Positions 22,646 through 43,358 of a DNA stretch of 64,000 bases are shown in pieces (position 1 is the stretch's first letter; each line of letters starts with the position of its first letter). This DNA is from an uncultured Thermoleophilia bacterium (GTDB taxonomy: Bacteria > Actinomycetota > Thermoleophilia > UBA2241). The notes beneath the pieces were generated by a model. It ran no database searches, had not been told where the DNA came from, and saw only the letters and a program-made list of their open reading frames with translations. The translations under genes were made by a program, and so were the position numbers. The stretch spans positions 439,032-503,031 of the forward strand of contig CAVPXV010000005.1 of NCBI GenBank assembly GCA_963709845.1, written 5' to 3'.

Positions 22646-22655
22646 GAGCCTGCCG

Positions 22656-28446: not shown

Positions 28447-28524
28447 CGGCGTGTGGCGCAGCCTGGTTAGCGCACTAGTCTGGGGGACTAGGGGTCGCCG
28501 GTTCAAATCCGGCCACGCCGACCA
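28447..28524 (+). tRNA. tRNA-Pro (anticodon GGG)
   Basis: Manually folded cloverleaf: 7-bp acceptor CGGCGTG/CACGCCG, D-arm GCGC/GCGC, anticodon stem CTAGT/ACTAG with loop CTGGGGG, T-arm GCCGG-TTCAAAT-CCGGC, encoded CCA. Confidence 0.85.
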
Positions 28525-28932
28525 TCTTCTTTCTCCTGCAAAACCCACACTTTCACGTTACGCTGACCGCAGATTTCTGCCTGCCTAGGTATTCGTAGAG
28601 ACGATCTCTGTCCCGATTTCGGCCGTTTGTCTGGAGTGGCCGCCGACCGTGCGCCGGCGGTCGGCGCGCATCGAGGCCGCGGCACCCCGCACGGCCGAGG
28701 TCGTTGAGATGCGTGTGAGGTCGGCGTGGCCGAGCTGGTCGGCGATCGCCGCAGCCGACGTCGTTGAGTGCCGACGGGGCCAGGAGTGCCGCTGCCGTGA
28801 TGTCGGAGCTGCGGCAGCCCTGCCCCATGCGCAACCTTCTGGAATGTGGGCATTCGGTCATTCGACTCCGGTGAGTACGAGCGGGTGCTCCGCGGCCGCT
28901 GCAGGGAATGATCTCCCTGCTGGACTGCGGCT

Positions 28933-29487
28933 ATGAGGACTCGACGCACAGTGGTCGTGATGACGGTGGCGGTGCTGGCGCTCGCCGGCTTCACCGCGAC
29001 CTACCTGACGAGGTTCACCTTCGGCGACCCGTTCTCGGGAACGTGGACGCTGTCCCCGGACGTCCCCTACGCCGTGGTGATCAAGCTCGCGAGGGGCGGG
29101 TACTGGGTCGCCGTTGCGGACGGACAGACCGACAGTGGTTGGGTCGCCGCCAGGCGCAGCGGATGGGTGTTGACACCCAGAGGTGTGGTCTTGACGACCA
29201 CGCCGGTGTTCCGCTTGTGGAACGGCCATCTGATCGAGACCGACAATGGCCTGAACACGCTCCTCACGAAGATGAGTGGCAGCACTTCGCTACCGCCACG
29301 GCAGTCCCCGGCGGTCTATGGGATCCTCAACGGCATGCGGAAAGAAGTCGGTCACGACCTGGCAGCGCTGCCGGTCGCCGGCATGCAGCGGAAGGCTGAG
29401 CGGCTGGCCGCCATGAGTGCGAGTCCCAGTGTGCGCCGGCACATAGGGCGTTTCGCTACGCCAAACGGCCCGCCGGGGGCAACGTGA
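28933..29487 (+). CDS. Hypothetical secreted/lipoprotein-like protein
   Basis: N-terminal hydrophobic segment VVVMTVAVLALAGF and protein-like composition. Its 3' end runs into the direct repeat at 29442. Confidence 0.4.
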   Translation: MRTRRTVVVMTVAVLALAGFTATYLTRFTFGDPFSGTWTLSPDVPYAVVIKLARGGYWVAVADGQTDSGWVAARRSGWVLTPRGVVLTTTPVFRLWNGHLIETDNGLNTLLTKMSGSTSLPPRQSPAVYGILNGMRKEVGHDLAALPVAGMQRKAERLAAMSASPSVRRHIGRFATPNGPPGAT

Positions 29488-29501
29488 GAGCGGCGGGCCG
29501 C
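29442..29501 (+). repeat. Direct repeat copy A (CATAGGGCGTTTCGCTACGC..GGCCCGCCG-loop-CGGCGGGCC hairpin)
   Basis: Near-identical to 38793..38849, including an identical 9-bp stem and a GGGGCAACG(T)GAGA loop. Confidence 0.6.
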
Positions 29502-30153
29502 AGCGGGTAACAGCGGGGAGTCCCCTCCCTCTCACCGCTATGGCGACGATACAGCACCGGTGACGTGTTGACAGCGATGTCGCCGCTGCGGACAACGCTT
29601 TCGGCGGCCGGCGGTTTGCGCGCTGGATGAGACGCATAGAGAGCCGTCGCACGAGTGTGGAGAAGCAGGGTAGTTCCCCGACGCGGAACGGCCCGTCGCG
29701 CCGGCTAATGGAGGCCAAGCGTGACGGGCCTACGACGCCACTCCTCTCTCCAGACGGTGACGCCGTGCACCATACGTTCCCGCAGCGTGGATGCAGGACA
29801 CGCGAACGGACGTCTCGATGTTGTCCGGTCAGGCTACGTCCGGCCGCGGGTGCGCCGTAGCGCCTGGCAGCCGCCGCGAGGGGTGACGACGAGGCGGACA
29901 CGGTGACAATGCCCCAGGACGCAAAGCGGGCCTGAGGTCGCTCCAGACTCCCAGGCCCGACGCCGTGCCCCCGTAGACTCGGCAATCTCCGATTGTTCCC
30001 CGTTTCGCGGGCGCCAGCCACGCTGCGACCATCGCCGCGCAGGTCTCCTCCTCATGGCGAGGCGCGGCCGGACGGGTCAGGGCCCTTTATTACGTCGCTG
30101 CGCCCACCTAGTATCTGACTGCACCTGCTCAGGCCGGCACGAGGACGGGGGAC

Positions 30154-30441
30154 ATGGCACTGCTCATCATCCAGCACAAGGTGGGGGACTACGCGACGTT
30201 CGTGCAGGTCTTCATGGACGACCAGGAACGCCGCAGAAGGGCGGGCTGCCTGGGCGCGCGGGTCCATCGCCGTGCCGACGACCCTAACGACGTCTGGGTG
30301 GTCCTCGAGTTCGACACGGCCGAGCACGCTCGCGAGCATGCCGAGGGGCTGGAACTGCGCGAGGCCATCAACTGGGCCACGAGCAACGTGTCGATGCCCA
30401 GCTTCGTAGTGCTCGAACAGCAGATGGAGACCGACGCCTAG
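30154..30441 (+). CDS. ABM-domain (antibiotic biosynthesis monooxygenase-like) small protein
   Basis: 95 aa following the ABM pattern (..GCLGARVHRRADDPNDVWVVLEFDTAEHAREH..). Confidence 0.55.
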   Translation: MALLIIQHKVGDYATFVQVFMDDQERRRRAGCLGARVHRRADDPNDVWVVLEFDTAEHAREHAEGLELREAINWATSNVSMPSFVVLEQQMETDA

Positions 30442-30482
30442 CTGGCGCAGACGTTTGACTCGCGTAGGCGGCAGTCACTTTT

Positions 30483-30508
30483 GGCGGCCGAGCCTCCGCT
30501 CGGCGGCC
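30483..30508. terminator. GC-rich hairpin between convergent genes (candidate bidirectional terminator)
   Basis: GGCGGCCGAGC-ctcc-GCTCGGCGGCC stem-loop between the ABM gene (+) and a hypothetical gene (-). Confidence 0.3.
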
Positions 30509-30581
30509 GGTGGAAGACCGCCAGCTCCGACGGTGGCCGCCCGACCCAAGAGGGCGGCGGGCCTCTGCTCGGCGCGAGACT

Positions 30582-30848
30582 CTAGGCGATCCGCACCGCG
30601 CCTTGGGCGCAGAGCTGCCCGCCGATCGCTTCCTCCTCGAGCAGCTGCAGCCGCTCGCGGAGCGCGTTCAGGATGTCGACGCAGAGCGCGAGCTGCTCGC
30701 TCGCTCGACCGATGCCCGCGGCGTTGCCGTCCTTCGCGTCCTGCAGCAGGTCACCCGCCGCCGCCAGCAGGTCGTTGACCGTCGCCGCCACCGTGCCCGG
30801 CACGTCGATCTCGAGGTCAGCGATCCTCTCGTCCAATGCCGTGGTCAT
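30582..30848 (-). CDS. Hypothetical protein (about 88 aa, helical)
   Basis: Start MTTALDERIADLEIDVPG. The upstream part of the ORF-track entry is Arg-rich artefact. Confidence 0.35.
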   Translation of the reverse strand: MTTALDERIADLEIDVPGTVAATVNDLLAAAGDLLQDAKDGNAAGIGRASEQLALCVDILNALRERLQLLEEEAIGGQLCAQGAVRIA

Positions 30849-31188
30849 GCCCGCCCCCCACTCGAATGCTCCGGCGCACCGCCACGTGCGCCGAGGCTCT
30901 GGGCGGCCCGCCGCGCCGTCAAGATGGCGGAGTGCGATGGGCCTGCGCAAACGCTACACCACGCGCAACGGGCGCAGCCCCAACGTAGCCGTCGCCGACA
31001 ACGCCTTTGGCGGCGCGGAGGCGGCGGCGCAGGCGCATCGGCCCTTCCGCCGGCGCTGAAGAGGATTCGCCTGGACTCCGGCCCGTCGGATCCCGTAAAC
31101 GGAGAGCGTCCGCACGGAATCGGATACGTTAGCGGTGCCGACGTCACGCCGTGACGAGGCTCATCACAGGCTCGGGCAGGGGGACACG

Positions 31189-32766
31189 ATGGAGGAGCGC
31201 GTAGCGGGCAAGGGCGATCTGCGGGACGGCCAGATGACGACCGTGCTCGTCGGCGGCAAGAAGGTCCTGCTGGCCAAGGTCGACGGTCGCTTCTACGCGA
31301 CCTCGGCGCGCTGCCCGCACTGGGGCGGGCCGCTGCCCGAGGGTACCCTGAACGGCCCGCGCCTCCTCTGCCCCTGGCACAAGGCCACCTACGACGTGCG
31401 CCGCGGCGACCTCCTGGAGCCGCCGTCCCTCGACGGCATCGCCGCCTTTCGCGTACGCGTCGAGGGCGAAGACGTGTTCGTCGACCGCTCCGAGGAGCCG
31501 CGCCGCGGGCGCACGATGCCCATGTACGCCTGCGACCTCGCGGCCGACGCGCGCGTCGTGGCCGTGATCGGCGGCGGCGGCGGCGCGGCCGCGGCCGTCG
31601 AGGCGCTGCGCCAGGAGTGCTTCATCGGCCGCATCGTGATGATCAGCCCCGAAGAGGAGTGGCCCTACGACCGCCCCAACCTGAGCAAGGACTTCCTCGC
31701 CGGAGAGCTGGACGCGAAGTGGCTGCCGCTGCGCTCGCCGGAGTTCTACGACGAGCACACCATCGAGCATCTCGTGGCGCGCGTGACGGAGCTCGACGTC
31801 GGCACGCGCCGGCTCACGCTCGAGGACGGGAGCACCATGACGCCCGACGCCGTGCTCATCGCCGGCGGTGCGCGGCCTCGCCGCCTGGACGTGCCGGGCG
31901 CGGATCTGGCGGGCGTCTTCACTCTGCGCTCGCAGGCGGACGCCGTGGCCCTCGGCGCCGCCGCCGCCGGCGCCCGGCGCGCCGTCGTCGTCGGCGCTAG
32001 CTTCATCGGCATGGAGGCCGCGGCCAGTCTCGCGCGGCGCGGCCTCGAGGTGATCGTGACCGGTCCCGAGTCGACGCCGTTCGAGCGCATCCTCGGCGAG
32101 GACGTCGGCCGCGTCGTGCAGGCGTGCCACGCCGAGCACGGCGTGCGTTTCGCGCTCGGGCGCGGCGTCGCACGCTTCGTGGGGGAGGGCACAGTCCGCG
32201 CCGTCGAGCTCGACGACGGGACGGCGCTCGACGCCGACCTCGTCGTGGTCGGCGTCGGCGTGCGCCCGGCGACCGAGTTCGTGCGCGGCGTCGAGCTCGA
32301 CGCCGACGGCGGTCTGCCCGTGGACGAGCGCCTGCGCGTCGCGCCGGGCGTGTGGGCGGCCGGTGACGTAGCCCGCTACCGCGAGCCCCACACCGGCCGC
32401 GACGTGCGCATCGAGCACTGGCGCCTCGCCGAGCAGCACGGCCGCGCCGCCGCCGCCGACATCGCCGGCAGGGGCGGGCCGTTCGCCGGCGTCCCCTTCT
32501 TCTGGACGCAGCACTTCGACCTCGAGCTCGGCTACGCCGGCGTCGGCCAGGGCTGGTCGGAGGTCATCCTCACCGGCGAGCCTGAGCAGCGCGACTTCAC
32601 CGCGTTCTACGCCGACGGTGACCGGCTCGTGGCCGCCTGCGGCACCCAGCGCGCCGAGATCGGCGCCTTCGTCGAGCTCATGCGCGAGGGTCGCCTGCCC
32701 GGACCGGGCGACATGCGCGGGCGCCGGCGGGCCGGCCTCGCGGAGCTTCTCGCGCGCCGCGCCTGA
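31189..32766 (+). CDS. Rieske [2Fe-2S] domain fused to an FAD-dependent pyridine nucleotide-disulfide oxidoreductase (AIF/ferredoxin-reductase-like)
   Basis: Rieske CPHWGGPL...CPWHKATYD, then FAD/NAD Rossmann motifs VIGGGGGAAAAVEAL and VVVGASFIGMEAA. ATG after GGGGGA. Confidence 0.85.
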   Translation: MEERVAGKGDLRDGQMTTVLVGGKKVLLAKVDGRFYATSARCPHWGGPLPEGTLNGPRLLCPWHKATYDVRRGDLLEPPSLDGIAAFRVRVEGEDVFVDRSEEPRRGRTMPMYACDLAADARVVAVIGGGGGAAAAVEALRQECFIGRIVMISPEEEWPYDRPNLSKDFLAGELDAKWLPLRSPEFYDEHTIEHLVARVTELDVGTRRLTLEDGSTMTPDAVLIAGGARPRRLDVPGADLAGVFTLRSQADAVALGAAAAGARRAVVVGASFIGMEAAASLARRGLEVIVTGPESTPFERILGEDVGRVVQACHAEHGVRFALGRGVARFVGEGTVRAVELDDGTALDADLVVVGVGVRPATEFVRGVELDADGGLPVDERLRVAPGVWAAGDVARYREPHTGRDVRIEHWRLAEQHGRAAAADIAGRGGPFAGVPFFWTQHFDLELGYAGVGQGWSEVILTGEPEQRDFTAFYADGDRLVAACGTQRAEIGAFVELMREGRLPGPGDMRGRRRAGLAELLARRA

Positions 32767-32961
32767 GCCTCAGACCAGCGCGCGGCCGCCTCAGGCACGG
32801 CCGCCCTGGATCGACGTCTGCCCGGGCGGCGCGCCGGCGTCCCCCCGGCGCGGCCACACAACGCGCCCGCGTTACTCACCCTCGTGCGCGGGGCAAGTGA
32901 AACCTGCGAGACGGCCTGCGAGGCCCTACGGACACGTCGGCGACACAGGAAATGAGCGATC

Positions 32962-33786
32962 ATGGCACGCCCACTCTGGAAGGGAAGCATCAGTTTCGGA
33001 CTCGTCTCCATCCCCGTCCACGTGTACTCGGCGACCCGCGCGCGAGCGCTGCGCTTTCGTCAGCTCGATCGTCGCGACAAGTCCCCGATCCGCGAACAGC
33101 GGATCAACGAGACGACCGGCCGCGAGGTGCTCTGGGAGGACATCGTCAAGGGCTACGAGTACGAGAAGGACTCCTTCGTGATCGTCGAGCCCGAGGATTT
33201 CGAACGCGCCAACGTCAAGGCGACCGAGACCATCGAGATCATGCAGGCCGTGCCGCGCGACGCGCTGGCGCCTGAGTACCTCGAGACTCCGCTGTTCGTG
33301 GTGCCGACCAAGGCCGGCATCAAGGCCTACCACCTGCTGCGCGAGACCCTGCGCCACAGCGACCGGCTGGCGATCGCGACGATCGTCATGCGCGGGCATC
33401 AGCACCTGGCCGCGCTGATCCCCCACGAGGACGTCATGATGCTGGAGCTCCTGCGCTTCGCTCACGAGCTCAAGGCGCTCTCCGATCTCGACCTCGACTA
33501 CGACATCTCGGCGCCGGAGACGAGGCCCGCCGAGATCGAGATGGCGGAACAGCTGGTCGCGGCGCTCGACGCACCGTGGCAGCCCAAGCAGTACCGCGAC
33601 GAGTACCGCGACGACCTGCTGGCGTTCATCGAGCGCAAGGCGAAGAGCGGCGAGAAGCCGGTGCGCAGCGCCGGCCGCGCCGACCGCGGCGAGCCCGCCG
33701 AAGTGGTGGACATCATGGAGCTGCTCAAGCAGAGCGTCGGCGAGGCGCGCGGCCGCGGCCGCTCGCGCCAGCGCAAGGCGAGCTGA
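32962..33786 (+). CDS. ku: Non-homologous end joining protein Ku
   Basis: MARPLWKGSISFGLVSIPVHVYSAT N-terminus and full Ku core. Confidence 0.9.
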   Translation: MARPLWKGSISFGLVSIPVHVYSATRARALRFRQLDRRDKSPIREQRINETTGREVLWEDIVKGYEYEKDSFVIVEPEDFERANVKATETIEIMQAVPRDALAPEYLETPLFVVPTKAGIKAYHLLRETLRHSDRLAIATIVMRGHQHLAALIPHEDVMMLELLRFAHELKALSDLDLDYDISAPETRPAEIEMAEQLVAALDAPWQPKQYRDEYRDDLLAFIERKAKSGEKPVRSAGRADRGEPAEVVDIMELLKQSVGEARGRGRSRQRKAS

Positions 33787-33801
33787 CGAGCAGGCTCAGG
33801 G

Positions 33802-36372
33802 ATGAGCCCGCTCGAGACATACCGCGACAAGCGCGACTTCGAGAAGACGGCGGAACCCGAGGGCCGTGCGTCGCGGCGGCGCTCGCGCGCCGCCGAAGCG
33901 GGCGGCGCCTTCGTCATCCACAAGCACGCGGCGCGCCGGTTGCACTACGACCTGCGCCTGCAGATGGACGGCGTGCTGCGCAGCTGGGCGGTGCCCAAAG
34001 GGCCCAGCCTGGACCCCGCGGTGAAGCGCCTCGCCGTCCACGTCGAGGACCATCCCCTGGAGTACGGCGCGTTCGAGGGGGTGATCCCCAAGGGCGAATA
34101 CGGCGGAGGGACGGTCATGATCTGGGACGCCGGCCTCTGGGAGGCGATCGGCGACGCGCCGGCCGGCTACCTCCGCGGCGAGCTCAAGTTCCGTCTCGAC
34201 GGTCAGCGCCTGCACGGCGCCTGGGTGCTCGTGCGCCTCAAGGGCCGCTCGGAGTCGGGAGAGGGCGCCGGAGACGGCCGCGACTGGCTGCTGATCAAGG
34301 AACGCGACGCCGAGGCGCAGCCGGGCGGCGCCGACCCGTGGGGCGACGAGGACCGCAGCGTGACGAGCCGGCGCACGATGAGCGAGATCGCGGCGGCCAG
34401 TCCACCGCCGGCGGCGCGCGGGCAGGCGTCGCGCACCGCCTCGCGCCGGCCGCGCACCGGTGGGCGGTCCTCCCCACCGCCCGCCGCGGCGAGCGTCACG
34501 CTGGCCACGCTCGTCGACGGTCCGCCCGACGGTGACGACTGGCTGCACGAGATCAAGTTCGACGGCTACCGCATCCTGGCGCGCCTGGACCACGGCCACG
34601 TGACGCTGCTTTCGCGCAACGGCCTCGACTGGACGCACCGCTTTCCGACGCTGGCCAAGGAGGTGGCGGAGCTGGAGACGGACGGCGCCCTGCTCGACGG
34701 CGAAGTCGTCGCCTACCGGGCGGACGGCGTCAGCGATTTCGGCGCCCTGCAGCGCGCCTTGAGCGAGGCCGACGACCGCAGCCTGACCTACATGGCGTTC
34801 GACCTCCTGCACGCCGACGGCGCCGACCTGCGGCGGCTGCCGCTGGCGAGGCGCAAGGCGCGCCTCGCCGAGTTGCTGCGAGCGGGAGAGGCCGGCGGCT
34901 CGGGCATCATCCGCGTCAGCGACCACGTCGCCGGCCACGGGGCGGCCTTCTACGCGGAGGCCTGCCGCCTCGGGCTCGAGGGCGTCGTCTCCAAGCGCGC
35001 CGACAGCGCCTACGCCGGCCGGCGCTCGCGCTCCTGGCTCAAGAGCAAGTGCGGCAAGCGTCAGGAGTTCGTCGTCGGCGGCTTCACGGACCCTGCCGGC
35101 AGCAGGACCGGGTTCGGCGCCCTCCTCGTCGGCGCCCGCGAGGCCGACGGCAGCCTGCGCTTCGCCGGCAAGGTCGGCTCCGGCTTCAGCGACGCCGACC
35201 TTCGGCGCCTGGCGCCGCGCCTGAAGGCCGCGGCGCGCCGGTCCTCGCCGTTCGCCGCGGCCGCCACGGTGCGCGGCGCGCACTGGGTCACGCCGAGACT
35301 GGTGGTCGAGGTCGCGTTCGCGGGCTGGACGAACGAGGGACGCCTGCGCCAGCCCGTGTTCAAGGGCGTGCGCGAGGACAAGCCGGCCGCGGCCGTGCGC
35401 CGCGAAGGCGCGGCCGCCAAGGCGTCCGCGCCCGCGAAGCCGCCGGCGGACCCGGACGCGGGTGCCGGCAAGCGCCCGAAGGCCGGCGCCCCTGTCTCCG
35501 TGGCCGGCGTGAGGATCTCGCACCCCGAGCGCCTCGTGTATCCCGACGTCGGGATGACCAAGCTCGAGGTCGTCAGCTACTACGAGGCGGTCGCGGAGCG
35601 CATGGTCCCGCAGCTCGACGGCCGGCCGCTCACCGTCGTGCGCTGCCCCGAGGGCGCCGCCGAGGAGTGCTTCTTCCAGAAGCGCGCGGCCGCGTCGATC
35701 CCCGACCGGGTCGAGAGGGTGACCGTCGCGCCGGGGCGCGGCAACCGCGGCACCATGGTCTACCCCGCCGTCACGAGCACGGCGGCGCTGATCACGATGG
35801 TGCAGATGGGCGCCCTCGAGTTCCACATCTGGGGATCGCGCGAGGCCACGCTCGAGGCTCCGGACAGGGTGGTGTTCGACCTCGACCCCGCCCCGGAGGT
35901 GAGGTGGGCCGAGGTGCGCACGGCGGCCCTGCGCCTGCGCGACGATCTGCGCGAGCGGGGGCTCGAGAGCCTGGTGATGACGTCCGGCGGCAAGGGGCTG
36001 CACGTCGTCGTCCCGCTGCGGCCGCAGGCCGGCTGGGATGCCGTCGCCGGCTTCGCCCGCGAGGTCGCCGAGGGTCTCGTGGCGCAGTATCCGCAGCAGT
36101 ACGTCGCCACCATGTCGAAGGCAAAGCGCGCCGGCAAGGTGTTCATCGACCACTTCCGCAACGGTCGCGGCGCGACGGCGATAGCGCCGTACTCACTGCG
36201 CGCCCGCGACGGCGCGGCGGTGGCCACGCCTCTGGCGTGGGACGAGCTCGCGAGGACCGCGGGAGGGGCCGTCTGGACGGCGCCGCGGGTGCTCCGCCGG
36301 CTGCGCTCCCGCGAGGATCCGTGGGCTGAGGCGGGCTCGCTCGGCCGGCAGACCTGGAGGCAGCGGCGATGA
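33802..36372 (+). CDS. ligD: Multidomain ATP-dependent DNA ligase LigD (phosphoesterase-ligase-polymerase order)
   Basis: N-terminal PE domain (FVIHKHAARRLHYDLRL), ligase motif I EIKFDGYR, C-terminal primase-polymerase domain (SHPERLVYPDVGMTKLEVVSYYEAVAERM). Confidence 0.9.
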   Translation: MSPLETYRDKRDFEKTAEPEGRASRRRSRAAEAGGAFVIHKHAARRLHYDLRLQMDGVLRSWAVPKGPSLDPAVKRLAVHVEDHPLEYGAFEGVIPKGEYGGGTVMIWDAGLWEAIGDAPAGYLRGELKFRLDGQRLHGAWVLVRLKGRSESGEGAGDGRDWLLIKERDAEAQPGGADPWGDEDRSVTSRRTMSEIAAASPPPAARGQASRTASRRPRTGGRSSPPPAAASVTLATLVDGPPDGDDWLHEIKFDGYRILARLDHGHVTLLSRNGLDWTHRFPTLAKEVAELETDGALLDGEVVAYRADGVSDFGALQRALSEADDRSLTYMAFDLLHADGADLRRLPLARRKARLAELLRAGEAGGSGIIRVSDHVAGHGAAFYAEACRLGLEGVVSKRADSAYAGRRSRSWLKSKCGKRQEFVVGGFTDPAGSRTGFGALLVGAREADGSLRFAGKVGSGFSDADLRRLAPRLKAAARRSSPFAAAATVRGAHWVTPRLVVEVAFAGWTNEGRLRQPVFKGVREDKPAAAVRREGAAAKASAPAKPPADPDAGAGKRPKAGAPVSVAGVRISHPERLVYPDVGMTKLEVVSYYEAVAERMVPQLDGRPLTVVRCPEGAAEECFFQKRAAASIPDRVERVTVAPGRGNRGTMVYPAVTSTAALITMVQMGALEFHIWGSREATLEAPDRVVFDLDPAPEVRWAEVRTAALRLRDDLRERGLESLVMTSGGKGLHVVVPLRPQAGWDAVAGFAREVAEGLVAQYPQQYVATMSKAKRAGKVFIDHFRNGRGATAIAPYSLRARDGAAVATPLAWDELARTAGGAVWTAPRVLRRLRSREDPWAEAGSLGRQTWRQRR

Positions 36373-36408
36373 TCGCCTGCCCCGCGGAGTTCCGGCCGGA
36401 GTAGATGC

Positions 36409-37374
36409 CTAGGGCGCCGTCCGCACGATCTGGTGCAGCGTCCAGCTGTCGCCGAGGTGCTTCTTCCAGCCGTCGCTCGACCTCATCCAGAACATGCGGC
36501 CCGTGACGACCCCGGTCGCGCTCATCGTCACCGTGACGTACCCGTACCGGGGTGAACTGGTGGTCGAGGCGAGGGTCTTGACGTCGCGCGCGTCGAGGGC
36601 CGCGGCGGAGGCGGCGTAGGGCGGCGCGCCCGCCATGCCCTCGGTCACGTAGTCGGTGCCGTCCGCCTGATGATGGCGGCGGTAGTTGTGGATGTCGCCT
36701 TGGGCGACGAGGTCGACGCCGTAGGCGCGGAAGAGCCTCACGAGTGCGTTGCGCTCACTCTTCGCGGTGGTCGCGAAGGCGGCGCCCTGCTTGGGGTCGA
36801 GCAGGGGGTGATGCAGCGCCACGACGATCCAGGCGCGCTTGTCGGCGATGGCGCGCAGCGTGCGCACGAGCCAAGCCGCCTGGGCGCTGTTGCGCGAATC
36901 GCCGACCCCGTAGAACCCGATGCGGCCCGAGTAGCCGGGCTCGTTTGTGTTGAGGACGATGACGTGGAACGGCCCGTCCGTGACCGCGTAGTAGCCCGGC
37001 GCGGCGTGGACCCGGCTGGCGTAAGCCGCGCGCGCAGCGGCGCTGACCGCCTCGTGGTTGCCCATGACGTAGTCGGTCTTCACGCCGACGCTGCCGTAGG
37101 CGGCGAAGAAGGCGTCGTACTTGGCGGCGATCGTCGCTCGCGAATCGCCGCTGCCGAGACAGACGTAGTCGCCGCCCGCGATCGCGTGGTCGGCGCCTTC
37201 GGCGCGCATCGCCCTCGAGACGACCTTCAGCCCGCTCGAGACCGTGGCTCCCGAGGTCGTCCATGGCCGGCAGTCGCCCCAGACCAGGAGCTTGTAGGGC
37301 GTCGCGCCGAGCGCGGTGCCGGGCAGGAGCAGGAAGGGAAGCAGGATCAGGCCGGCCGCCAGCAGACGTCTCAA
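36409..37374 (-). CDS. Secreted calcineurin-like metallophosphoesterase
   Basis: Signal peptide MRRLLAAGLILLPFLLLPGTALG. Metallophosphoesterase motifs (GDxxY..., GNHE, GDIHNYRR). Confidence 0.8.
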   Translation of the reverse strand: MRRLLAAGLILLPFLLLPGTALGATPYKLLVWGDCRPWTTSGATVSSGLKVVSRAMRAEGADHAIAGGDYVCLGSGDSRATIAAKYDAFFAAYGSVGVKTDYVMGNHEAVSAAARAAYASRVHAAPGYYAVTDGPFHVIVLNTNEPGYSGRIGFYGVGDSRNSAQAAWLVRTLRAIADKRAWIVVALHHPLLDPKQGAAFATTAKSERNALVRLFRAYGVDLVAQGDIHNYRRHHQADGTDYVTEGMAGAPPYAASAAALDARDVKTLASTTSSPRYGYVTVTMSATGVVTGRMFWMRSSDGWKKHLGDSWTLHQIVRTAP

Positions 37375-37482
37375 GGAACCTCCTCGTACCGGGGTCCCAT
37401 GATGCGGCGCACGCGCGCGACGCGCAACCCCTCGCGGCGCACTGCGGGCCTTGAGGCGACCACCGACTGGAGGCAGGCCCGG

Positions 37483-38595
37483 CTAGCGCTCCGCTCCGGC
37501 GGCGGCCTGCATCGCTCGCCTGAGGTTCCTCAGCGACTCGTGGAAGAGCGTGAGGACCTGCCGCCAGGCAAGGTCCCAGCTGTCTGGCGGGTAGCGGAGG
37601 CCGAGGTCGGCGAAGACCCGCGTCTCGTCCGCTTGGCCGTGCAGCGGGTGCAGGTTCCGGAGCTTCTGGATGCTGCGCAGTCGCTCCGCGTCGTCGACCA
37701 CGCTGCCGTACTTCTCCGTCACCAGTGCGACCAGGCGAGGCACCGCGCCGTCGCCCGCGTTCCCGTTGGTCGCCGGCACCACGAGCTTGTCCAGCAGGTC
37801 CGCGACCGCCGCCGCGCGCAGACTGAAGTCCTTGTAGTCGACGCAGGGCCCGAAGAGCGCCGCAGCGCTGCGTGCCCGCGGGATCGGCCACGGCCTGCGC
37901 TTGCCCGTGGCCAAGCGAAAGGCGACCGTGAAGAAGTCGATCTCGTCGACCACGCGATCGCCGATGTCCGCCGAGGGTTCGGCCGGGACCCTCTCGACCT
38001 GGACCCTGCGCTTCCAGCAAGAGCGCAGCTTCAAGTCGGGGTTGCAGTCCGGGCCAGGGTGGCGTTCGCCGGAATCGCAGAGCACGCCGGCCAGATTCCG
38101 GCCGAAGGCGCCGCCCTTCACCGCCTGCGTGACGGGATGCACGAAATCCGCGCAACGCAGGCGGTCGTCGGCGACCGCGCAGGTGCGGCAGGCGAAGGCC
38201 GTGGTCATCGCCGGTCCCTCGTCGCCGCAGGCCCGGCACTCCGGCCCGGATCGGCCCGCCTCCACCCAGCGGCAGCGCTTGTGGTCTCCGGCCGTCGCGC
38301 GGAGCTCGTCCACGTTCTCGGCCGAGATGAACAGGTGGATGGGGTCCGAGCCCTCGCACGACAATGCGCCGTCGCGGAACGCCGATTCGATCCCGGGAAG
38401 CGCGTAGCGCAGCATGGTCGGTGTCGCCAGACTCACGCCGCCAGGCGCAAAGCAGCTGTACACCTCGTAGGGAAGGTGTATCTGCACGGCGCGACGGCCA
38501 CCGCCATCACGAGCCACCAGCTGAAGGATCCAGTCGCCGTGAGAGTAGTCGTCGCGAATGAGCCCGGCGCATTGGATCTCGACATCGGCCCGCAT
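37483..38595 (-). CDS. Hypothetical Cys-rich protein (370 aa)
   Basis: Protein-like composition with clustered Cys (CRWVEAGRSGPECRACGDEG, CRTC...C). I recognise no family. The ORF-track extension above 38595 is an artefact. Confidence 0.55.
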   Translation of the reverse strand: MRADVEIQCAGLIRDDYSHGDWILQLVARDGGGRRAVQIHLPYEVYSCFAPGGVSLATPTMLRYALPGIESAFRDGALSCEGSDPIHLFISAENVDELRATAGDHKRCRWVEAGRSGPECRACGDEGPAMTTAFACRTCAVADDRLRCADFVHPVTQAVKGGAFGRNLAGVLCDSGERHPGPDCNPDLKLRSCWKRRVQVERVPAEPSADIGDRVVDEIDFFTVAFRLATGKRRPWPIPRARSAAALFGPCVDYKDFSLRAAAVADLLDKLVVPATNGNAGDGAVPRLVALVTEKYGSVVDDAERLRSIQKLRNLHPLHGQADETRVFADLGLRYPPDSWDLAWRQVLTLFHESLRNLRRAMQAAAGAER

Positions 38596-38792
38596 AGTCC
38601 CCCCGTTCGACCTCGCAAGCCTATCCCGACCATGAGGCACCAACAATGGGAGGAAGACGTAACCTCGGCTGCCCGGACGCGGCGCGGCCAGTCGCCGGCA
38701 CCTGGCAGAGGACGTTCCGCCATGCAAAAAGCGACCCGCCGTTGCCCTGCGGGTCGCTTCGATACATCCTTCGGCCGGAGCGGTGCCCGCTC

Positions 38793-38849
38793 CATAGAAC
38801 GTTCCGCTACGCGGGGCGGCCCGCCGGGGGCAACGAGACGGCGGGCCGC
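38793..38849 (+). repeat. Direct repeat copy B (matches 29442..29501)
   Basis: CATAGAACGTTCCGCTACGC..GGCCCGCCGGGGGCAACGAGACGGCGGGCCGC, lying 9351 bp downstream of copy A in the same orientation. Confidence 0.6.
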
Positions 38850-39011
38850 GGGTGCAGCCGGGACTACCCCAGCCGCGCCTTAGCGGCAAGGATACGACAG
38901 CGACGACCGCTTCAAGGCTTTGTAGCCGCCGCCGACAACGCTTCCTCGAAGCGAGCAGGTGACGGCAAGATCCCCCTGCTTGCCATCACCGCCTCCCGGC
39001 GCGGGTCCTGC

Positions 39012-39200
39012 TCAGCGCTCGCGCGCCTTCCGCTTCACCTGCCTGCGGTCCAGGTAGAAGCGACCGCCGATCGTCTTCCCCCACAAGTCCCCGGCCACGA
39101 CCATGCGCCGGATCTCGAAGACGTCGATGCAGAGCAACTCGGCGGCCTCTCTCGTGGTCATCACCGGACATTCGGCTTGCGATCGCTGCTCCAGGGCCAT
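39012..39200 (-). CDS. xis: Excisionase/Xis-like HTH DNA-binding protein
   Basis: 62 aa with TTREAAELLCIDVFEIRRMVVAGDLWGKTIGGRFYLDRRQV (excisionase-family HTH pattern). Strong RBS GAGGAGGGA. Confidence 0.55.
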   Translation of the reverse strand: MALEQRSQAECPVMTTREAAELLCIDVFEIRRMVVAGDLWGKTIGGRFYLDRRQVKRKARER

Positions 39201-39844
39201 GTCCGTCCCTCCTCGCGGTCAAGCGCCGGCCACGACCATGCATTCAACCCGATCCGGGATTCACCTCTAGCGAGACGCCCCTTGCGCCGGAACGTGGAGG
39301 GTCAGCGGCTTGACGAGAAAGGCGACGGCCACGCGGTGGCGGCCATGCCGGCCCCGAGCAGGGGCCTGCGCGTGCCGCCGGTCGGGATCGTCCCACGGAA
39401 GAGGCCCGGCGCGCCGGTAAGGCTTCGCGGCTTCGCAACGGGCCTGTACGGACCCTATACCACGCGATCCCGAATGCAGCCACATCGTCGTCGTTGCCGA
39501 CAACGCTTTGGGTCGTCGGTGAGACGCGGGGGTGACGAAACGCAGAGGCGACCCGTCTGCCCCGGGACGGGTCGCCTCGATAGATACATCGACCCTGGCG
39601 CCAGGCTGCTGCATAGGACGTTTGGCCATGCCGAGCGGCTCGGGGGCGCGGGGCGGGCACGCGCGACCCGCCCCGCGATGGGGGTGTACGTCGGGGGGCG
39701 CGGGGGCGGGCAGGTCCTTGGCCCCCCGACGCAAGCGCTGCTTCGCCGCTGCCGGCCTCCCTCCTGCACAGCGAAGTAGTATGCAGCGTGAGGGCGCCGC
39801 CCGAGCGCCAGACTGTCCCCGGTCGTTCCCGAAGGAGGCGAGCG

Positions 39845-40143
39845 ATGATGACTACCGACCCCGCAGCTGCGGATCTGGTGGGTCTGCAGTTCTCCGTCTA
39901 CCCCCTACGCCAGGCGCACGTGCGCCCGGCCATCCAGGCCGCCGTCGGCGCCGCGGCAGCGGCCGGCGTGAACGTCAACGTGGGCCGCCTCAGCACCTTC
40001 GGCCCGGGCGACGAGGACTCCGTCTTCGCCGCGGTGCGGGCGGCGTTCGACGCGGCCCGTTCGTTCGGACCCGCGGTGATGGTGGTGACCCTGTCCAGCG
40101 GCCTCCCGAGCGAGCGAGACCGTCGGGGAGATCGAGCGAGCCG
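39845..40143 (+). CDS. MTH1187/YkoF-family small ligand-binding protein; 3' end uncertain (possible frameshift)
   Basis: MMTTDPAAADLVGLQFSVYPL...GRLSTFGPGDEDSVFAAVRAAFDAA...AVMVVTLSSG fits the family. The annotated ORF continues as Arg/Ala-rich junk to 40426. Confidence 0.45.
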
Positions 40144-40781
40144 CGCACGACTGAGCCGGCGGGACCGACCTCATCGTGCAGGCCGCGCGTCTCACCCCGT
40201 CAGCTTGGCCTTGAAGGCCGCGAGCTCCACGTCGGTCATGGCGACGGCGGCGGCGGGGGCGACGAGAAGCTCGCCCTGCTCCGCCGGGGCCATCGCGGCG
40301 CCTCAAGCAGGCCCCGCCGGCAGCCCTGCCAGTCTTGCGGCCACGCGCGTGAGCAGGGCCAGCCCGGCTGCCCGCCGGGCGCCGCTGTCGTTTGGCCCGG
40401 CCGCGAACGGGTCGCTGTGCCAGTAGCGCTCGGCGCGGCCCTGCGCCCAGCCCACGCCGATGAACTCGAGGCGCAGCGTGGAGCGCGGCTCGAGGGGGCG
40501 CTCCCGGGCTGCGCTCGAGGCGTCGCGCTCGGCTGGGTCGTCAGCGTGAACGGCTGTGCGCCGAACGCCAGCCAGCGCTCGCCGGACGCGGCGAAACAGC
40601 GCGCGTGGCCGGCGTCGCGCCTCTCCTCGGGATCGTTCAGCCAGCGCCACTCCATCGCGACACCCCGCATCTCGGGCTTGTGGCCAGCGTGCCGTCTGGG
40701 GAAGCCGCGTCGGTCTGACCCTGTAGAGTCTACCCGTCCTCGCGTGGCGCCGCCGGGCCGGGCGTTGCGGAGCCGCACGCT

Positions 40782-41066
40782 TCACTCCGGCAGCGGCTCC
40801 GCATCGTCCTCGGAGGTCTCGGCGTGGCGCAGGGCCTCGATCTCGCGGAGCCGGTCCTCGAGGCCCTCCAGCAGCGCGATCGCGACCGTGACCTGCTCCG
40901 CGGCGCGGTCCTCGCGCCCTTCCTGCAGGCGCGCGTAGGCCGCGTCGAGCGTCGCGTCCAGCGCCACGCGCACGTGCCCGACCGCCCCGCCGCCGGGGAC
41001 GAGAGCGGGGCGCAGATCCCCCATGCGATCGGCCAGGAGAGCCTTGATCCTCTCGACGTCGTCCAT
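40782..41066 (-). CDS. Hypothetical small acidic protein
   Basis: 94 aa, helical and acidic (MDDVERIKALLADRMGDL...), with non-artefactual composition. Confidence 0.35.
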   Translation of the reverse strand: MDDVERIKALLADRMGDLRPALVPGGGAVGHVRVALDATLDAAYARLQEGREDRAAEQVTVAIALLEGLEDRLREIEALRHAETSEDDAEPLPE

Positions 41067-41592
41067 CGACCCTCTTCCCTTGCGCGTGTGTCCCGAGCGG
41101 AGTCCAGCTTACGGGAAAGACCGCGCCGCGCATCGCACGCTGACGAGCGCCGCTTGCGGCAGTACGCGGCGGCCAGTACGACACCGGCGCGACTCTTGAC
41201 GGCTGCTCGGCGCCGACGTAGGGTTGATAGTGCCGCTCCAGGCAGCCTGCCGCCGCGGCCCAGCGCGTGCGTGACCGGGGATCACGCGCGCCTCGTGAAA
41301 GGGTGCTCGTGGGCACACAGCCCGGCAGTCGCTCTCGCTCTGACCGACTCGCGATCGGGTCGCACCGTCCCACGACGCGCCGACGCCTCTTCCCCATCGC
41401 CCACCACGGGCGCGCCGCGGCGCGCCCGACGCTGTCCGTCATCGCCGAGAGCGCGCCGCGGCGCCCGCGTCCGGACCAGCCGGACGGGAGGTGAGTGCCT
41501 GCCACGCGTGAGTACAGCGCGCCCGGGCGTGACCCAGCCGCTACTCGCGGCTCCGCGCCCACGCGCGAGGGGAACAAAGGGGGAATCGCACG

Positions 41593-43014
41593 ATGAGAAG
41601 GTCACTCGCTCTACTCTGCGTCGTCGCGTGCCTGGCGGTGCTGGCGCTCATGCTCACCGCCGGCTTGGCGTCGGCACAAGACCGCAGCCGCCCGCCCCGC
41701 CGGCGGTCGACTGGACGCAGATGCTCAACTACGACCAGATGTCGCAGATGCTCCAGGACCTGAACACCGCCTACCCGAAGACGACCAAGCTGTTCTCCAT
41801 CGGGCACTCGTGGCAGGAGCGCCAGCTCTGGTGCCTCGAGCTCTCGGCGCCGATCGCGGCCGCCAAGCACAAGACCGGCGTCGCCTTGTTCGGCAACATC
41901 CACGGCGGCGAGCAGCAGGGCGGCATGGGCGCCGCCTACACCGCCTGGTGGCTCGCCACCCGGTACGGCAAGGACGCCACGGCGACCAAGATCCTCGGCA
42001 AGTACAACGTGTACATCGTGCCGCTGATCAACCCCGACGGCTATCAGCGGTCCTTCCTCGTCTCGACGCGCCAGAACATGCGCCCCACCGACGAGAACGG
42101 CGTCGCGGGGCCGTTCAGCGACCCGCGCTTCGACACCAACGGGGACGGCATCATCGCGCAGATCTACCAGCAGAACACGGGGACCCCGCCGGCCGTGGGC
42201 ACGATCGTGACGGGCGCCAACCCCGATCCCACGAACATCACGCCGCTTCAACTCTCCCGCGCAGTCCACGGTGTATGAGAGCCTGAGGCCGTGGCGGCAA
42301 CGGCGTGTGGATGGACCTCGACCGCAACGGCCTCTGGGGCGACGACGACTTCGGCAGCCTCGTCGACATGAACCGCAACTTCGACTACCTGTGGAACTAC
42401 CACGACGTGTCGGTGGTCCCGAACCTGGGCGCCAACGCCTGGACGAGCGCCGGCCCCGACGCGGCCTCCGAGCCCGAGGTCAAGGCCGTCCAGAACTTCC
42501 TCATCAGCCACCCGGTGGCGGCGCTCTCGACGCTGCACACCGGCGAGCAGTCGGTGCTGTGGCCGTGGTGCTACACTCCTGCGCCGACCACCGACGACGC
42601 CTTCATGGGCGCCACGTCCGCGCCATGGCCGCGGCGTGGTCCACGACGACCGGTCGTGGCATGTACACCATGACGTCCTACAACGACTACCCCACCTCCG
42701 CCGAGCTGATCGACTGGGCCTGGGGACGCCTGCACATCCACGCCTACACGCAGGAGGTCTACCAGGGCTACAGCGCCAGCAACCCGGACACCTGGTATCC
42801 GCGCACGACGCCGCCGGACCAGTGGATCTACATGGGCGACTGGCAGGGCCTGCACGAACATCTGGTTCCGCAACACCGGCTCCGCCCAGTTGCAGGGCAA
42901 GGCCTGCCGTTCCAGGACAAGCTGGTGGCCGGCGTCAAGGACAGCTTCGTCGTGATGGCCCTCAGCGAGCCGAACGGGATGGGCGCGATCGTCCCGGACT
43001 GGATCGTCTGGTGA
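41593..43014 (+). pseudogene. Secreted M14-family zinc carboxypeptidase, interrupted by three -1 frame changes
   Basis: Signal peptide in one frame (MRRSLALLCVVACLAVLALMLTAGLASAQ). M14 motifs in three other frames (LFSIGHSWQERQLWCLELS, GNIHGGEQQG, YIVPLINPDGY, DMNRNFDY, later NDYPTSAELIDWAW). Confidence 0.75.
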
Positions 43015-43282: not shown

Positions 43283-43358
43283 CCTCGGCGCAGTGTACAG
43301 GAGCGCGGCCGGCCGTGCCCCCGGCGGCGGCCGCGCGTGCGCCCGGCTCCTGCACGGG

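What the first reader, a model, noticed from the sequence alone, without database searches (positions are those of the whole stretch)
28447..39780. tRNA-Pro followed by a low-GC junction and an NHEJ-containing segment bracketed by about 60-nt direct repeats
Immediately 3' of tRNA-Pro(GGG) the sequence drops to about 50% GC for 120 nt (tcttctttctcctgcaaaacccacactttcacgtt...), the usual look of an island junction. Then 29442..29501 and 38793..38849 are near-identical direct repeats (same 20-nt head, identical 9-bp stem, same loop) 9.35 kb apart. They enclose an ABM protein, Rieske-FAD oxidoreductase, Ku, LigD, a metallophosphoesterase and a Cys-rich unknown. An excisionase-like ORF lies just beyond copy B. 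No integrase is in the window. The repeats could be att-like ends of a mobilised repair island, or simply two members of a dispersed REP-like family.
Basis: seen in the sequence. Interest (0 to 1): 0.65.

Follow-up and report, generated by a model that had tools for sequence, protein, structure and literature searches.

The report
Variable tRNA-Pro hotspot with hairpin repeats
The Ku-LigD DNA-repair genes sit in a strain-variable stretch next to a tRNA-Pro gene, but the two 60-nt repeats around them are not the ends of a mobile island; they belong to a small, undescribed family of hairpin-rich non-coding units scattered through that stretch.

Summary
The sequence features are real. The att-site reading is not supported. 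tRNA-Pro(GGG) is at 28447-28524. Four genus-level relatives lose homology 0-17 nt after it and regain it at 44223-44372, beside proS. Their intervals hold about 0.6, 6.2 and 8.2 kb of unrelated genes, against 15.7 kb here. This is an integrase-free chromosomal hotspot, and Ku-LigD is accessory cargo in it.

A 97%-identical relative keeps repeat A but diverges at 30276-30279, inside the ABM gene. A second contig from the same sample starts exactly there and carries the NHEJ block as far as 42947. Other relatives share only the Ku-LigD operon, in four other neighbourhoods. No variation boundary falls on repeat A or B. No tRNA 3' end is duplicated.

The repeats are 83% identical. Each is part of a roughly 235-nt modular unit. 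There are three units here (A, B, C), plus two solo copies of a 22-nt motif I call mod3. Three more units lie beside a tRNA-Ser gene on an unrelated metagenome contig. Read on the minus strand, unit B looks like a promoter, a run of hairpins and an intrinsic terminator, which could make an sRNA of about 155 nt. A 565-nt indel carrying a small HTH gene is bounded by two mod3 copies. Rfam has no match. Interest is modest.

The parts
28447..28524 (+). tRNA-Pro(GGG). It marks the left anchor of the variable interval.
   Evidence: ARAGORN. Rfam RF00005, 62.5 bits.
28525..28644 (.). Low-GC (53%) tRNA trailer. Homology with genus-level relatives ends inside it or at its start: 28524 (L173), 28535 (L172), 28537 (L045), 28541 (L044).
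28933..29487 (+). ORF of 184 aa with an N-terminal hydrophobic segment and no family match. Its 3' end runs into unit A. The L043 ortholog is called at only 155 aa.
29370..29607 (-). Unit A of the repeat family. It has a -10-like TATCGT but no clear terminator.
   Evidence: nhmmer E 9e-37. Alignment A3.. The orthologous copy is kept in L043.
30154..30441 (+). ABM-domain gene. It contains the fork at 30276-30279, where L043 diverges and contig_93812 (L051/L174) begins.
   Evidence: Pfam PF03992..
30582..30848 (-). 88-aa gene with no family match. It lies downstream, on the minus strand, of solo mod3-D and a TAGCGT hexamer.
30940..31040 (-). Solo mod3-D module (core 30985-31006). It is homologous over 103 nt to 39441-39542, the region upstream of the HTH gene.
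   Evidence: blastn 69% identity, E 2e-8..
31189..32766 (+). Rieske [2Fe-2S] plus FAD/NAD(P) oxidoreductase fusion.
   Evidence: Pfam PF00355, PF07992, PF14759.
32962..36372 (+). Ku (32962-33786) and LigD (33802-36372; phosphoesterase-ligase-primase/polymerase). This is the only part shared at DNA level with L049, L295-L299 and L300.
   Evidence: Pfam. blastn boundaries 32845/32945 to 36350/36351.
36409..38595 (-). Metallophosphoesterase (36409-37374) and a Cys-rich 370-aa unknown (37483-38595).
   Evidence: Pfam PF00149. No NCBIfam or PADLOC hit. Same gene calls in L051.
38706..38950 (-). It is a candidate minus-strand transcript of about 155 nt, 38882 to 38726.
   Evidence: 80% identical over 222 nt to L145 2913-3133.
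38945..39509 (-). 565-nt segment present here but absent from the colinear L145 arrangement. It is bounded by mod3-B and mod3-C' (39487-39508). It carries the 62-aa HTH_17 gene (39012-39200).
   Evidence: Alignment of window B+C against L145.. The protein has no relative in the 5.8-billion-protein set.
39535..39775 (-). Unit C. Components: T hairpin (39548-39575), head (39612-39631), GC hairpins, and a degenerate mod3 (about 39741-39768). No -10-like hexamer was seen.
   Evidence: nhmmer E 3e-21..
39845..43014 (+). Remaining cargo. YkoF-like gene starting at 39845. A 94-aa unknown at 40782-41066 on the minus strand. M14 carboxypeptidase at about 41.6-43.0 kb, split over frames. The break with L051 is at 42947, 22 codons before the natural stop.
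   Evidence: Pfam..
43112..43766 (-). Small membrane protein gene and a DUF498 gene. Their homologues flank the Ku-LigD insertion in L300.
44223..46601 (-). Right anchor, where core homology resumes: 44223 (L044), 44231 (L173), 44372 (L172). It holds an HTH_31 gene and proS.

Best explanation
Window 28.5-44.2 kb is the variable filling of a chromosomal gene-exchange hotspot. The hotspot lies between two core anchors, tRNA-Pro(GGG) and proS. It carries no integrase.

Ku-LigD is accessory cargo there. The operon behaves as a two-gene module that turns up in different neighbourhoods in different relatives. The content of the interval turns over in two ways: by illegitimate recombination, with breakpoints inside genes, and by recombination between short direct repeats.

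The two 60-nt repeats are not att sites. Each is the 'head plus GC hairpin' part of a modular non-coding unit of about 235 nt. All units are in one orientation and have been copied locally.

Read on the minus strand, a unit consists of:
- an upstream 22-nt motif (mod3, AAGCGTTGTCGGCGRCGGCTAC);
- a TANNNT -10-like hexamer about 27-29 nt after the motif;
- two or three GC-rich hairpins;
- a conserved 20-mer (GCGTAGCGGAACGTYCTATG);
- a hairpin with the conserved stem GCGACCCG/CGGGTCGC, followed by a U-rich tail.

Inferred function: these are promoter, small-RNA and terminator modules. Unit B would make a transcript of about 155 nt. Solo mod3 promoters drive the HTH gene and the 88-aa gene. Units A and C are decayed copies.

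Shown: the anatomy, the copy list, the boundaries of variation, and the absence of integrase and of a duplicated tRNA end.
Inferred: transcription of the units, promoter and terminator activity, and the recombination mechanism.
For: Hotspot:
- Core synteny stops at 28524-28541 and resumes at 44223-44372 in L044, L172 and L173 (L045's contig ends just beyond the tRNA). The intervals hold about 6.2, 0.6 and 8.2 kb of unrelated genes, and no gene called there has an integrase Pfam hit on record.
- GC of the interval is 0.713, against 0.709 and 0.695 for the two flanks.

Polymorphism:
- L043 (97% identical) is colinear with window 15199-30279 and then differs.
- L051/L174, from the same sample, starts at 30276 and is colinear to 42947.

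Ku-LigD as a module: homology is limited to the operon in L049, L295-L299 and L300, and the flanking genes differ in each.

Not att sites:
- The tRNA 3' end is not duplicated.
- No integrase was found.
- The repeats are 83% identical over 60 nt and 69% over 170 nt.

Unit family:
- Three units and two solo mod3 copies lie here, and none lies elsewhere in the 64 kb.
- Three units lie on L145, next to tRNA-Ser. One of them is 80% identical to unit B, although the flanking genes are unrelated.

Promoter-like and terminator-like features:
- TANNNT sits at a fixed offset in 5 of 6 mod3 copies, and the hexamer sequence differs between copies.
- The T hairpin is followed by UUUUUGC in unit B and CUUUUGC in L145 U2.

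Repeat-mediated change: the 565-nt HTH-gene indel is bounded by mod3 copies.

Published context:
- Many HGT hotspots lack recognisable mobile elements (PMC5635113).
- NHEJ has been gained and lost repeatedly in bacteria (PMC7719229).
Against: - There are no expression data.
- Covariation in the hairpins is weak. The stems are conserved in sequence, and the RNAalifold covariation term is unfavourable.
- Folding energies do not tell the two strands apart.
- Units A and C lack a terminator or a promoter.
- The units have no consistent position relative to neighbouring genes on either strand.
- Genome-wide copy number is unknown.
- The L043 contig ends about 0.9 kb beyond the fetched locus. Ku-LigD could therefore lie further along, or elsewhere, in that strain.
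- All comparison sequences are metagenome assemblies with visible frameshift errors.
Confidence: 0.55

Rival explanations
1. A 9.35-kb repair island (29.5-38.8 kb) was inserted by site-specific recombination. Repeats A and B are its attL and attR. The small HTH protein is its excisionase.
For: Two direct repeats flank the block. A weak excisionase-family HTH lies just outside copy B. The block is next to a tRNA gene and is absent from relatives.
Against: - No boundary of variation coincides with A or B. The fork is at 30276-30279 and the other break is at 42947.
- L043 keeps repeat A and the first 126 nt of the ABM gene but none of the block.
- Only Ku-LigD is shared with other relatives.
- The repeats are 83% identical, and 69% when extended.
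- A third unit and solo modules exist.
- There is no integrase and no tRNA 3' duplication.
- mod3 and the head motif have no dyad symmetry of the kind recombinase core sites show (read directly from the sequence).
Confidence: 0.04
2. The units are a dispersed REP/BIME-like structural repeat. They are DNA-level palindromic elements, possibly spread by a RAYT-type transposase, with many copies genome-wide and no RNA product of their own.
For: - The units are mosaics of GC-rich hairpins and conserved linkers in intergenic DNA.
- The stem sequences are conserved rather than covarying.
- A GTAG tetranucleotide lies next to the large hairpin. REPs end in GTAG (PMC3733652).
- The same unit occurs at an unrelated locus in another organism.
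Against: - Only 3 units occur in 64 kb, all inside the variable interval, and none occurs in about 48 kb of core DNA or in L044, L045, L049, L172, L173 or L295-L300.
- All copies are in one orientation, whereas BIMEs alternate (PMC2817692 abstract).
- GTAG lies 3' of the hairpin with a 6-nt gap, not at its 5' end.
- No Y1 transposase is in the window.
- The genome-collection scan with the head motif gave only chance hits.
Confidence: 0.2
3. The units, or their mod3 22-mers, are the crossover sites of a cassette-exchange system working at tRNA-adjacent hotspots. It would be integron-like, with an unknown recombinase acting in trans.
For: - The 565-nt HTH-gene segment is bounded exactly by two mod3 copies when compared with L145.
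- Units sit between genes or gene groups in two different tRNA-adjacent variable regions, in the same orientation relative to the tRNA.
- mod3 plus about 60 nt is shared upstream of two unrelated genes.
Against: - The two breakpoints observed within the species (30276-30279 and 42947) lie inside genes and not at units.
- The attC core motifs RYYYAAC and GTTRRRY are absent, and no recombinase was found.
- The 'cassettes' are heterogeneous in size and in strand.
- There is only one indel example, and it compares two different organisms.
- 13 identical bases are enough for slippage or RecA-independent deletion.
Confidence: 0.1
4. Assembly artefact. The apparent fork and mosaic are mis-joins in long-read metagenome assemblies.
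For: Frameshift-like splits in proS, the M14 peptidase and L051's LigD show an error-prone assembly. Both variant junctions come from one sample.
Against: - Window 15199-30279 and 30276-42947 are each reproduced in independent contigs at 97% identity.
- The window's junctions leave the ABM and M14 reading frames intact.
- contig_93812 begins exactly at the fork, as expected where an assembly graph branches between two co-occurring haplotypes.
- Four further relatives independently show different content in the same interval.
Confidence: 0.05

Closest known systems
Chromosomal HGT hotspots that lack mobile-element genes (Oliveira, Touchon, Cury and Rocha 2017, PMC5635113)
   Same: An interval between the same two core anchors (tRNA-Pro and proS) has unrelated, strain-specific content. 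It ranges from 0.6 to 15.7 kb across relatives. It has no integrase and no compositional signal, and it carries a repair system as cargo.
   Different: [quoted passage not shown] Two of the observed breakpoints lie inside cargo genes and not at the anchors.
tRNA-integrated genomic islands and integrative elements
   Same: The left border lies within 17 nt of a tRNA 3' end. The cargo is accessory. A small excisionase-family-like HTH gene is present.
   Different: There is no integrase. The tRNA 3' end is not repeated at the far border. GC content is not atypical. The flanking repeats do not match the borders of variation.
REP / BIME extragenic palindromic repeats (PMC2817692, PMC3733652)
   Same: Intergenic mosaics of GC-rich hairpins with conserved stems and linkers. 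A GTAG lies next to one hairpin. One hairpin is terminator-like.
   Different: Few copies have been seen. All are in one orientation. The unit is about 235 nt, not 20-40 nt. The GTAG is on the 3' side. No RAYT gene was seen.
Putative mobile promoters (Matus-Garcia et al. 2012, PMC3488235)
   Same: About 100 nt of homologous upstream sequence (mod3 plus a -10-like hexamer) lies in front of unrelated genes (the HTH gene and the 88-aa gene) and of the non-coding units.
   Different: Promoter activity has not been shown. Here the module is joined to a hairpin array and a terminator.
Bacterial two-component NHEJ (Ku plus multidomain LigD), with its sporadic distribution (Sharda et al. 2020, PMC7719229)
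   Same: A Ku gene immediately followed by a LigD with phosphoesterase, ligase and primase-polymerase domains. It is patchy among close relatives.
   Different: That survey found no chromosomal NHEJ in compositionally detected horizontally acquired regions. Here the operon lies in a hotspot identified by synteny, with no compositional signal.
Integron cassette arrays and CALINs (attC clusters lacking an integrase)
   Same: Structured repeats in one orientation lie between genes. One small gene is bounded by two copies of a repeat.
   Different: There are no RYYYAAC/GTTRRRY cores and no IntI. The gene blocks between repeats hold up to five genes on both strands. The repeat lies at the 5' side of the genes, not the 3' side.

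Membership tests
tRNA-integrated genomic island (integrase-mediated) | Tyrosine or serine integrase gene at or near a border | tested here: not met
   No integrase or transposase domain in any ORF scanned across 28.5-64 kb. None among the Pfam hits on record for genes called in the intervals of L043, L044, L172 and L173.
tRNA-integrated genomic island (integrase-mediated) | Direct repeat of the tRNA 3' end at the distal border | tested here: not met
   blastn-short with the tRNA plus 36 nt against the window. The best other hit is 14 nt, inverted, at 28719-28732.
tRNA-integrated genomic island (integrase-mediated) | Present or absent as one block, bounded by the repeats, among relatives | tested here: not met
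   Boundaries lie at 28524-28541, 30276-30279, 32845/32945, 36351, 42947 and 44223-44372. None lies at 29442-29501 or 38793-38849.
HGT hotspot between conserved core genes | Same flanking core genes with different gene content in several related genomes | tested here: met
   The tRNA-Pro side and the proS side are conserved in L044, L172 and L173. Their fillings are 6.2, 0.6 and 8.2 kb of unrelated genes, against 15.7 kb here.
HGT hotspot between conserved core genes | Raised homologous recombination in the flanking core genes | not testable with these tools
   This needs a population of complete genomes.
REP / BIME | High copy number, typically more than 100 per genome | not testable with these tools
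   The whole source genome was not available. In the 64 kb there are 3 units, all inside the variable interval. The head motif gave 42 single chance hits across 185,579 species genomes.
REP / BIME | Short palindrome ending in GTAG (or CGTC) at one end | tested here: inconclusive
   GTAG is present in the head motif of A, B, U1 and U2. It lies 6 nt 3' of the hairpin on the minus strand.
REP / BIME | REPs in alternating orientation within a BIME | tested here: not met
   All units and modules are on the same strand, both in the window and on L145.
Integron / CALIN attC array | attC with RYYYAAC ... GTTRRRY cores pairing at the base of a long imperfect hairpin | tested here: not met
   Read directly from the unit sequences. 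There are no such cores. The hairpins are separate short stems.
Integron / CALIN attC array | IntI integrase, or at least single-ORF cassettes all in one orientation | tested here: not met
   No integrase was found. The blocks between repeats hold 1 to 5 genes on both strands.
Any curated RNA family (Rfam 15) | Match at the gathering score | tested here: not met
   Only the tRNA matches. With the E-value threshold on 28400-31300 and 38400-39950, nothing scores better than E about 3.
Small RNA gene (generic) | -10 promoter element and intrinsic terminator on the same strand, a suitable distance apart | tested here: met
   This holds for unit B: TATCCT at about 38894-38889, then a hairpin at 38759-38731 followed by UUUUU. 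It also holds for L145 U2. It does not hold for A, C, U1 or U3.
Small RNA gene (generic) | Covariation supporting a conserved RNA structure, and evidence of expression | tested here: inconclusive
   RNAalifold on 6 units gave 28 pairs, 7 of them with a compensatory change, and a covariation term of +2.34. There are no expression data.
Bacterial NHEJ (Ku + LigD) | Ku beta-barrel domain, plus LigD with ligase, primase-polymerase and phosphoesterase domains, encoded side by side | tested here: met
   PF02735 E 1.7e-45. PF21686, PF13298, PF01068 and PF04679.

The most novel reading that the evidence does not exclude
The roughly 235-nt units, together with their 22-nt mod3 cores, would be a previously undescribed mobile non-coding module. 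It could be a promoter, small-RNA and terminator cassette. It could instead be the crossover site of an integrase-less cassette-exchange system. Either way it would populate tRNA-adjacent hotspots in an uncultured high-GC actinobacterial lineage and would mediate gain and loss of neighbouring genes, as seen in the HTH-gene indel bounded by mod3 copies.
Probability: 0.1. Interest if true: 0.7.

Novelty: new member of a known kind. Interest (0 to 1): 0.35.

Why it matters
A synteny comparison catches a chromosomal Ku-LigD operon as strain-variable cargo in an integrase-free hotspot. Two haplotypes apparently co-occur in one sample. A large survey based on base composition found no horizontally acquired chromosomal NHEJ (PMC7719229), so this locus is a concrete example of how NHEJ can be gained or lost without any compositional trace.

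The repeat units are an unclassified non-coding family. One member pair is 80% identical between two unrelated tRNA-adjacent loci. If they are transcribed, or if they promote recombination, they would be a handle on how such hotspots are organised in uncultured Actinomycetota. As things stand, the finding mostly corrects an over-interpretation: direct repeats next to a tRNA gene do not make att sites.

Tried and rejected
- I scanned genome contigs with the head motif CATAGRRCGTTYSGCYAYGC. It gave 42 single hits in unrelated taxa. All were chance hits, mostly in coding sequence, and the source genome was not among them.
- I scanned viral contigs with the head, mod3 and T-hairpin patterns. Only chance hits came back, and none passed the unit HMMs.
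- I ran blastn with window 38700-39800 against plasmids and phages. There was no match.
- I scanned metagenome contigs with mod3. Only L145 is a real relative. L054 and L110 look like coding-sequence hits (aconitase-family by eye).
- Rfam gave nothing at either threshold.
- I spent the last protein search on the 62-aa HTH protein. It found only itself.
- I considered a PafBC/RecA-NDp-type promoter (TGTCGGTG-N8-TANNNT) inside mod3. I rejected it because the spacing to any TANNNT is wrong (5 nt or about 36 nt).
- I considered ECF-type GGAAC promoters in the head motif. There is no consistent -10 element.
- I considered a conserved small ORF in the units. I rejected it because an indel shifts the frame between unit B and L145 U2, so the peptides differ.
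- I considered a riboswitch or attenuator leader for the Cys-rich operon. I rejected it because L145 U2 has no downstream gene on that strand.
- NCBIfam and PADLOC searches of the unknown proteins gave nothing.
- The window's own Ku could not be found by exact look-up.

Full report

ARAGORN and Rfam both place tRNA-Pro(GGG) at 28447-28524 on the + strand. The next 120 nt are 53% GC, in a window that averages 70.6%. Pfam confirms the gene list:
- ABM, 30154-30441;
- Rieske plus FAD reductase, 31189-32766;
- Ku, 32962-33786;
- LigD with phosphoesterase, ligase and primase-polymerase domains, 33802-36372;
- a metallophosphoesterase and a 370-aa Cys-rich protein with no family, both on the minus strand.

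The small ORF at 39012-39200 (minus strand) is only a weak excisionase-family HTH. It scores 19.5 bits against a cut-off of 27, and 21 bits against 28.8.

They are 50/60 aligned positions identical (83%), so they are not near-identical. The similarity also continues well beyond 60 nt: 29431-29600 matches 38783-38943 over 170 nt at 69% identity, E 2e-18.

**2. The repeats belong to a small modular family.**

Searches within the window turned up more pieces:
- The 20-nt 'head' motif CATAGRRCGTTYSGCYAYGC occurs three times (29442, 38793, 39612). A fourth copy with one mismatch lies at 38706.
- A 22-nt motif that I call mod3 (GTMGYCGYYGCSGACAACGCYT) occurs four times (29579, 30985, 38922, 39487).
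- A hairpin with the stem GCGACCCG/CGGGTCGC occurs twice (38731, 39548) and nowhere else in the 64 kb.

A profile HMM built from the aligned units finds three full units: A (29370-29607), B (38715-38950) and C (39535-39775). It also finds two solo mod3 modules. All are on one strand and all lie inside 29.4-39.8 kb. None lies in the roughly 48 kb of flanking core DNA. The 'bracketing' of the NHEJ genes therefore comes from picking two members of a local family.

**3. What relatives show.**

I used the neighbouring ManC/PMM fusion protein as an anchor and fetched five related loci.

- L043 (ENA ERZ25039488 contig_31907) is 97% identical in DNA and colinear with window 15199-30279. That span includes the tRNA, the low-GC trailer and unit A. 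Homology stops inside the ABM gene, after ...CATCGCCGTGCCGAC, and an unrelated sequence follows. By eye it reads as a metallo-beta-lactamase-fold fragment.
- L044, L045, L172 and L173 are 76-83% identical in DNA. They lose homology at 28541, 28537, 28535 and 28524, which is 0-17 nt after the tRNA. L044, L172 and L173 regain it at 44223, 44372 and 44231, beside proS. L045's contig ends just beyond the tRNA.
- Their intervals hold about 6.2, 0.6 and 8.2 kb of unrelated genes, against 15.7 kb here. None of the genes called in them has an integrase-family Pfam hit on record.
- No integrase or transposase domain appears in the window ORFs I scanned across 28.5-64 kb.
- No copy of the tRNA 3' end lies anywhere in the window.
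- GC of the interval (0.713) equals that of the flanks.

This is what Oliveira et al. describe as a hotspot without recognisable mobile elements (PMC5635113).

**4. The NHEJ block is polymorphic, but its borders are not the repeats.**

A cluster mate of the window's Ku led to L051/L174 (ERZ25039488 contig_93812, 20.5 kb). It comes from the same sample as L043. It begins exactly at window 30276 and is colinear at 97.3% identity to 42947. It carries Rieske, Ku, LigD, the phosphoesterase, the Cys-rich gene, units B and C, the HTH gene, the YkoF-like gene and the M14 peptidase. It then continues into unrelated genes, among them lgt and lspA.

The break at 42947 falls 22 codons before the natural stop of the M14 gene. 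So that one sample contains two paths leaving the same fork: one resembles the window and the other resembles L043. Both junctions cut genes in the variant contigs, while the window's versions are intact. That points to illegitimate recombination and not to a site-specific event. The fork lies 780 nt to the right of repeat A.

**5. Ku-LigD behaves as a two-gene module.**

Relatives whose Ku is 76-89% identical carry the operon in four other neighbourhoods:
- between RibD_C/glyoxalase and BPSS1818/short-chain dehydrogenase (L049);
- between EamA/polyketide cyclase and a Pyr_redox_dim protein (L295-L299);
- between DUF488/rubredoxin and a DUF498 gene followed by CCG/LUD genes (L300).

DNA homology with the window is confined to 32845/32945-36351. 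None of these loci contains a unit. This fits the repeated gain and loss of NHEJ reported by Sharda et al. (PMC7719229).

**6. The units occur at a second, unrelated locus.**

All but one are chance or coding hits. The exception is L145 (JGI Ga0209048_10029359, 4.7 kb). It carries the 3' end of serS, tRNA-Ser(TGA), small ORFs and three units: U1 at 2100-2345, U2 at 2905-3142 and U3 at 3160-3480.

L145 2913-3133 is 80% identical to window 38724-38941 (E 5e-48), although the flanking genes are unrelated. L145 U2 plus U3 aligns colinearly with window unit B plus unit C once window 38945-39509 is removed. That 565-nt segment holds the HTH gene and one mod3 copy, and it is bounded by the two mod3 copies. 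The HTH protein has no relative among 5.8 billion clusters.

**7. What the units might do.**

Aligned on the minus strand, a unit reads as follows:
- mod3, AAGCGTTGTCGGCGRCGGCTAC;
- about 27-29 nt further on, a TANNNT hexamer. It is present at the same offset in 5 of 6 mod3 copies, with different hexamer sequences: TATCGT, TAGCGT, TATCCT, TAGGGT, TATCCT;
- two GC-rich hairpins;
- the head motif, GCGTAGCGGAACGTYCTATG;
- a variable small hairpin;
- GATGTATCGA;
- the GCGACCCG hairpin, followed by UUUUUGC in unit B and CUUUUGC in U2.

For B and U2 this has the shape of a promoter, a transcript of about 155 nt and an intrinsic terminator. The solo mod3 copies D and C' sit about 100-250 nt upstream of the 88-aa gene and the HTH gene, on the same strand as those genes.

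The support is limited:
- Folding z-scores are about -2 to -3.5 on both strands.
- Covariation is weak and the stems are conserved in sequence.
- Units A and C lack one end or the other.
- Rfam has nothing.
- No small ORF is conserved. An indel shifts the frame between B and U2.

I therefore commit, with moderate confidence, to 'promoter, small-RNA and terminator modules copied locally'. REP/BIME-like structural DNA remains the main alternative for the nature of the units. A cassette-crossover role for mod3 is the long shot.

**8. Verdict.**

The sequence features are real, and the 'island junction' instinct was right. The Ku-LigD genes lie in accessory DNA beside tRNA-Pro, and they are absent from that position in every relative examined. 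The mechanistic reading, att-like repeats bounding a mobilised 9.35-kb repair island, fails every test I could apply. So far that family is small, local to variable intervals, and unclassified.

**Caveats.**
- All comparison sequences are metagenome assemblies with evident indel errors (split proS, M14 and LigD genes).
- The L043 contig ends about 0.9 kb beyond what I could read.
- The whole source genome could not be scanned.

Noticed in passing
window 43112-43723; L300 9003-9229 and 13430-13797: The small membrane-protein gene and the DUF498 gene are adjacent in the window. In L300 their homologues are separated by DUF488, rubredoxin, Ku and LigD. In that relative the NHEJ operon therefore sits between two genes that lie 7 kb downstream of the window's own Ku-LigD.
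   Followed up: partly
window 44730-46601 (proS), about 41600-43014 (M14 peptidase); L051 3524-6099 (LigD): Conserved genes are split over two or three reading frames. This looks like long-read indel error in the assemblies. Part of the 3% divergence between the window and L043/L051 may therefore be error.
   Followed up: no
window 49360-52671: A RiPP-like cluster on the minus strand: an NTP_transf_5 protein, a radical SAM protein with a SPASM domain, and a PqqD-like protein. An ABC transporter follows at 54958-56862.
   Followed up: no
window 39689-39781; L145 3391-3481: A G-run/C-run hairpin (GGGGGGCGCGGGGGCGGGCA...GGCCCCCCGACGCA) and a following CTCCTGCACA..TAGTA motif are conserved at 74% identity between two loci whose downstream genes are unrelated. 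The motif could be a plus-strand -10 element in front of the YkoF-like gene.
   Followed up: partly
L145 3072-3085: Immediately after the -10-like TATCCT, L145 U2 has a perfect 14-bp palindrome, CCTTGGCGCCAAGG. The window's unit B has an imperfect version, CCTTGCCGCTAAGG. It may be an operator.
   Followed up: no
L044 4556-4651: ARAGORN predicts a tRNA-SeC(TCA) inside the variable interval of that relative. I did not check it.
   Followed up: no
L049 10339-10415: In the relative whose Ku is 89% identical, Ku-LigD lies 2.7 kb from a different proline tRNA, tRNA-Pro(CGG). This may be coincidence.
   Followed up: no
window 39012-39200: The 62-aa HTH protein matched only itself in the 5.8-billion-cluster protein search. 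That entry covers two contigs, one of 682,755 bp; the one place a look-up could read is contig_93812.
   Followed up: yes
L172 3003-3612 and 5174-5681: The relative with the smallest tRNA-Pro/proS interval has two toxin-antitoxin pairs (RelE/HTH and ParE/RHH) inserted between the epimerase genes on the far side of proS. The window lacks them.
   Followed up: no
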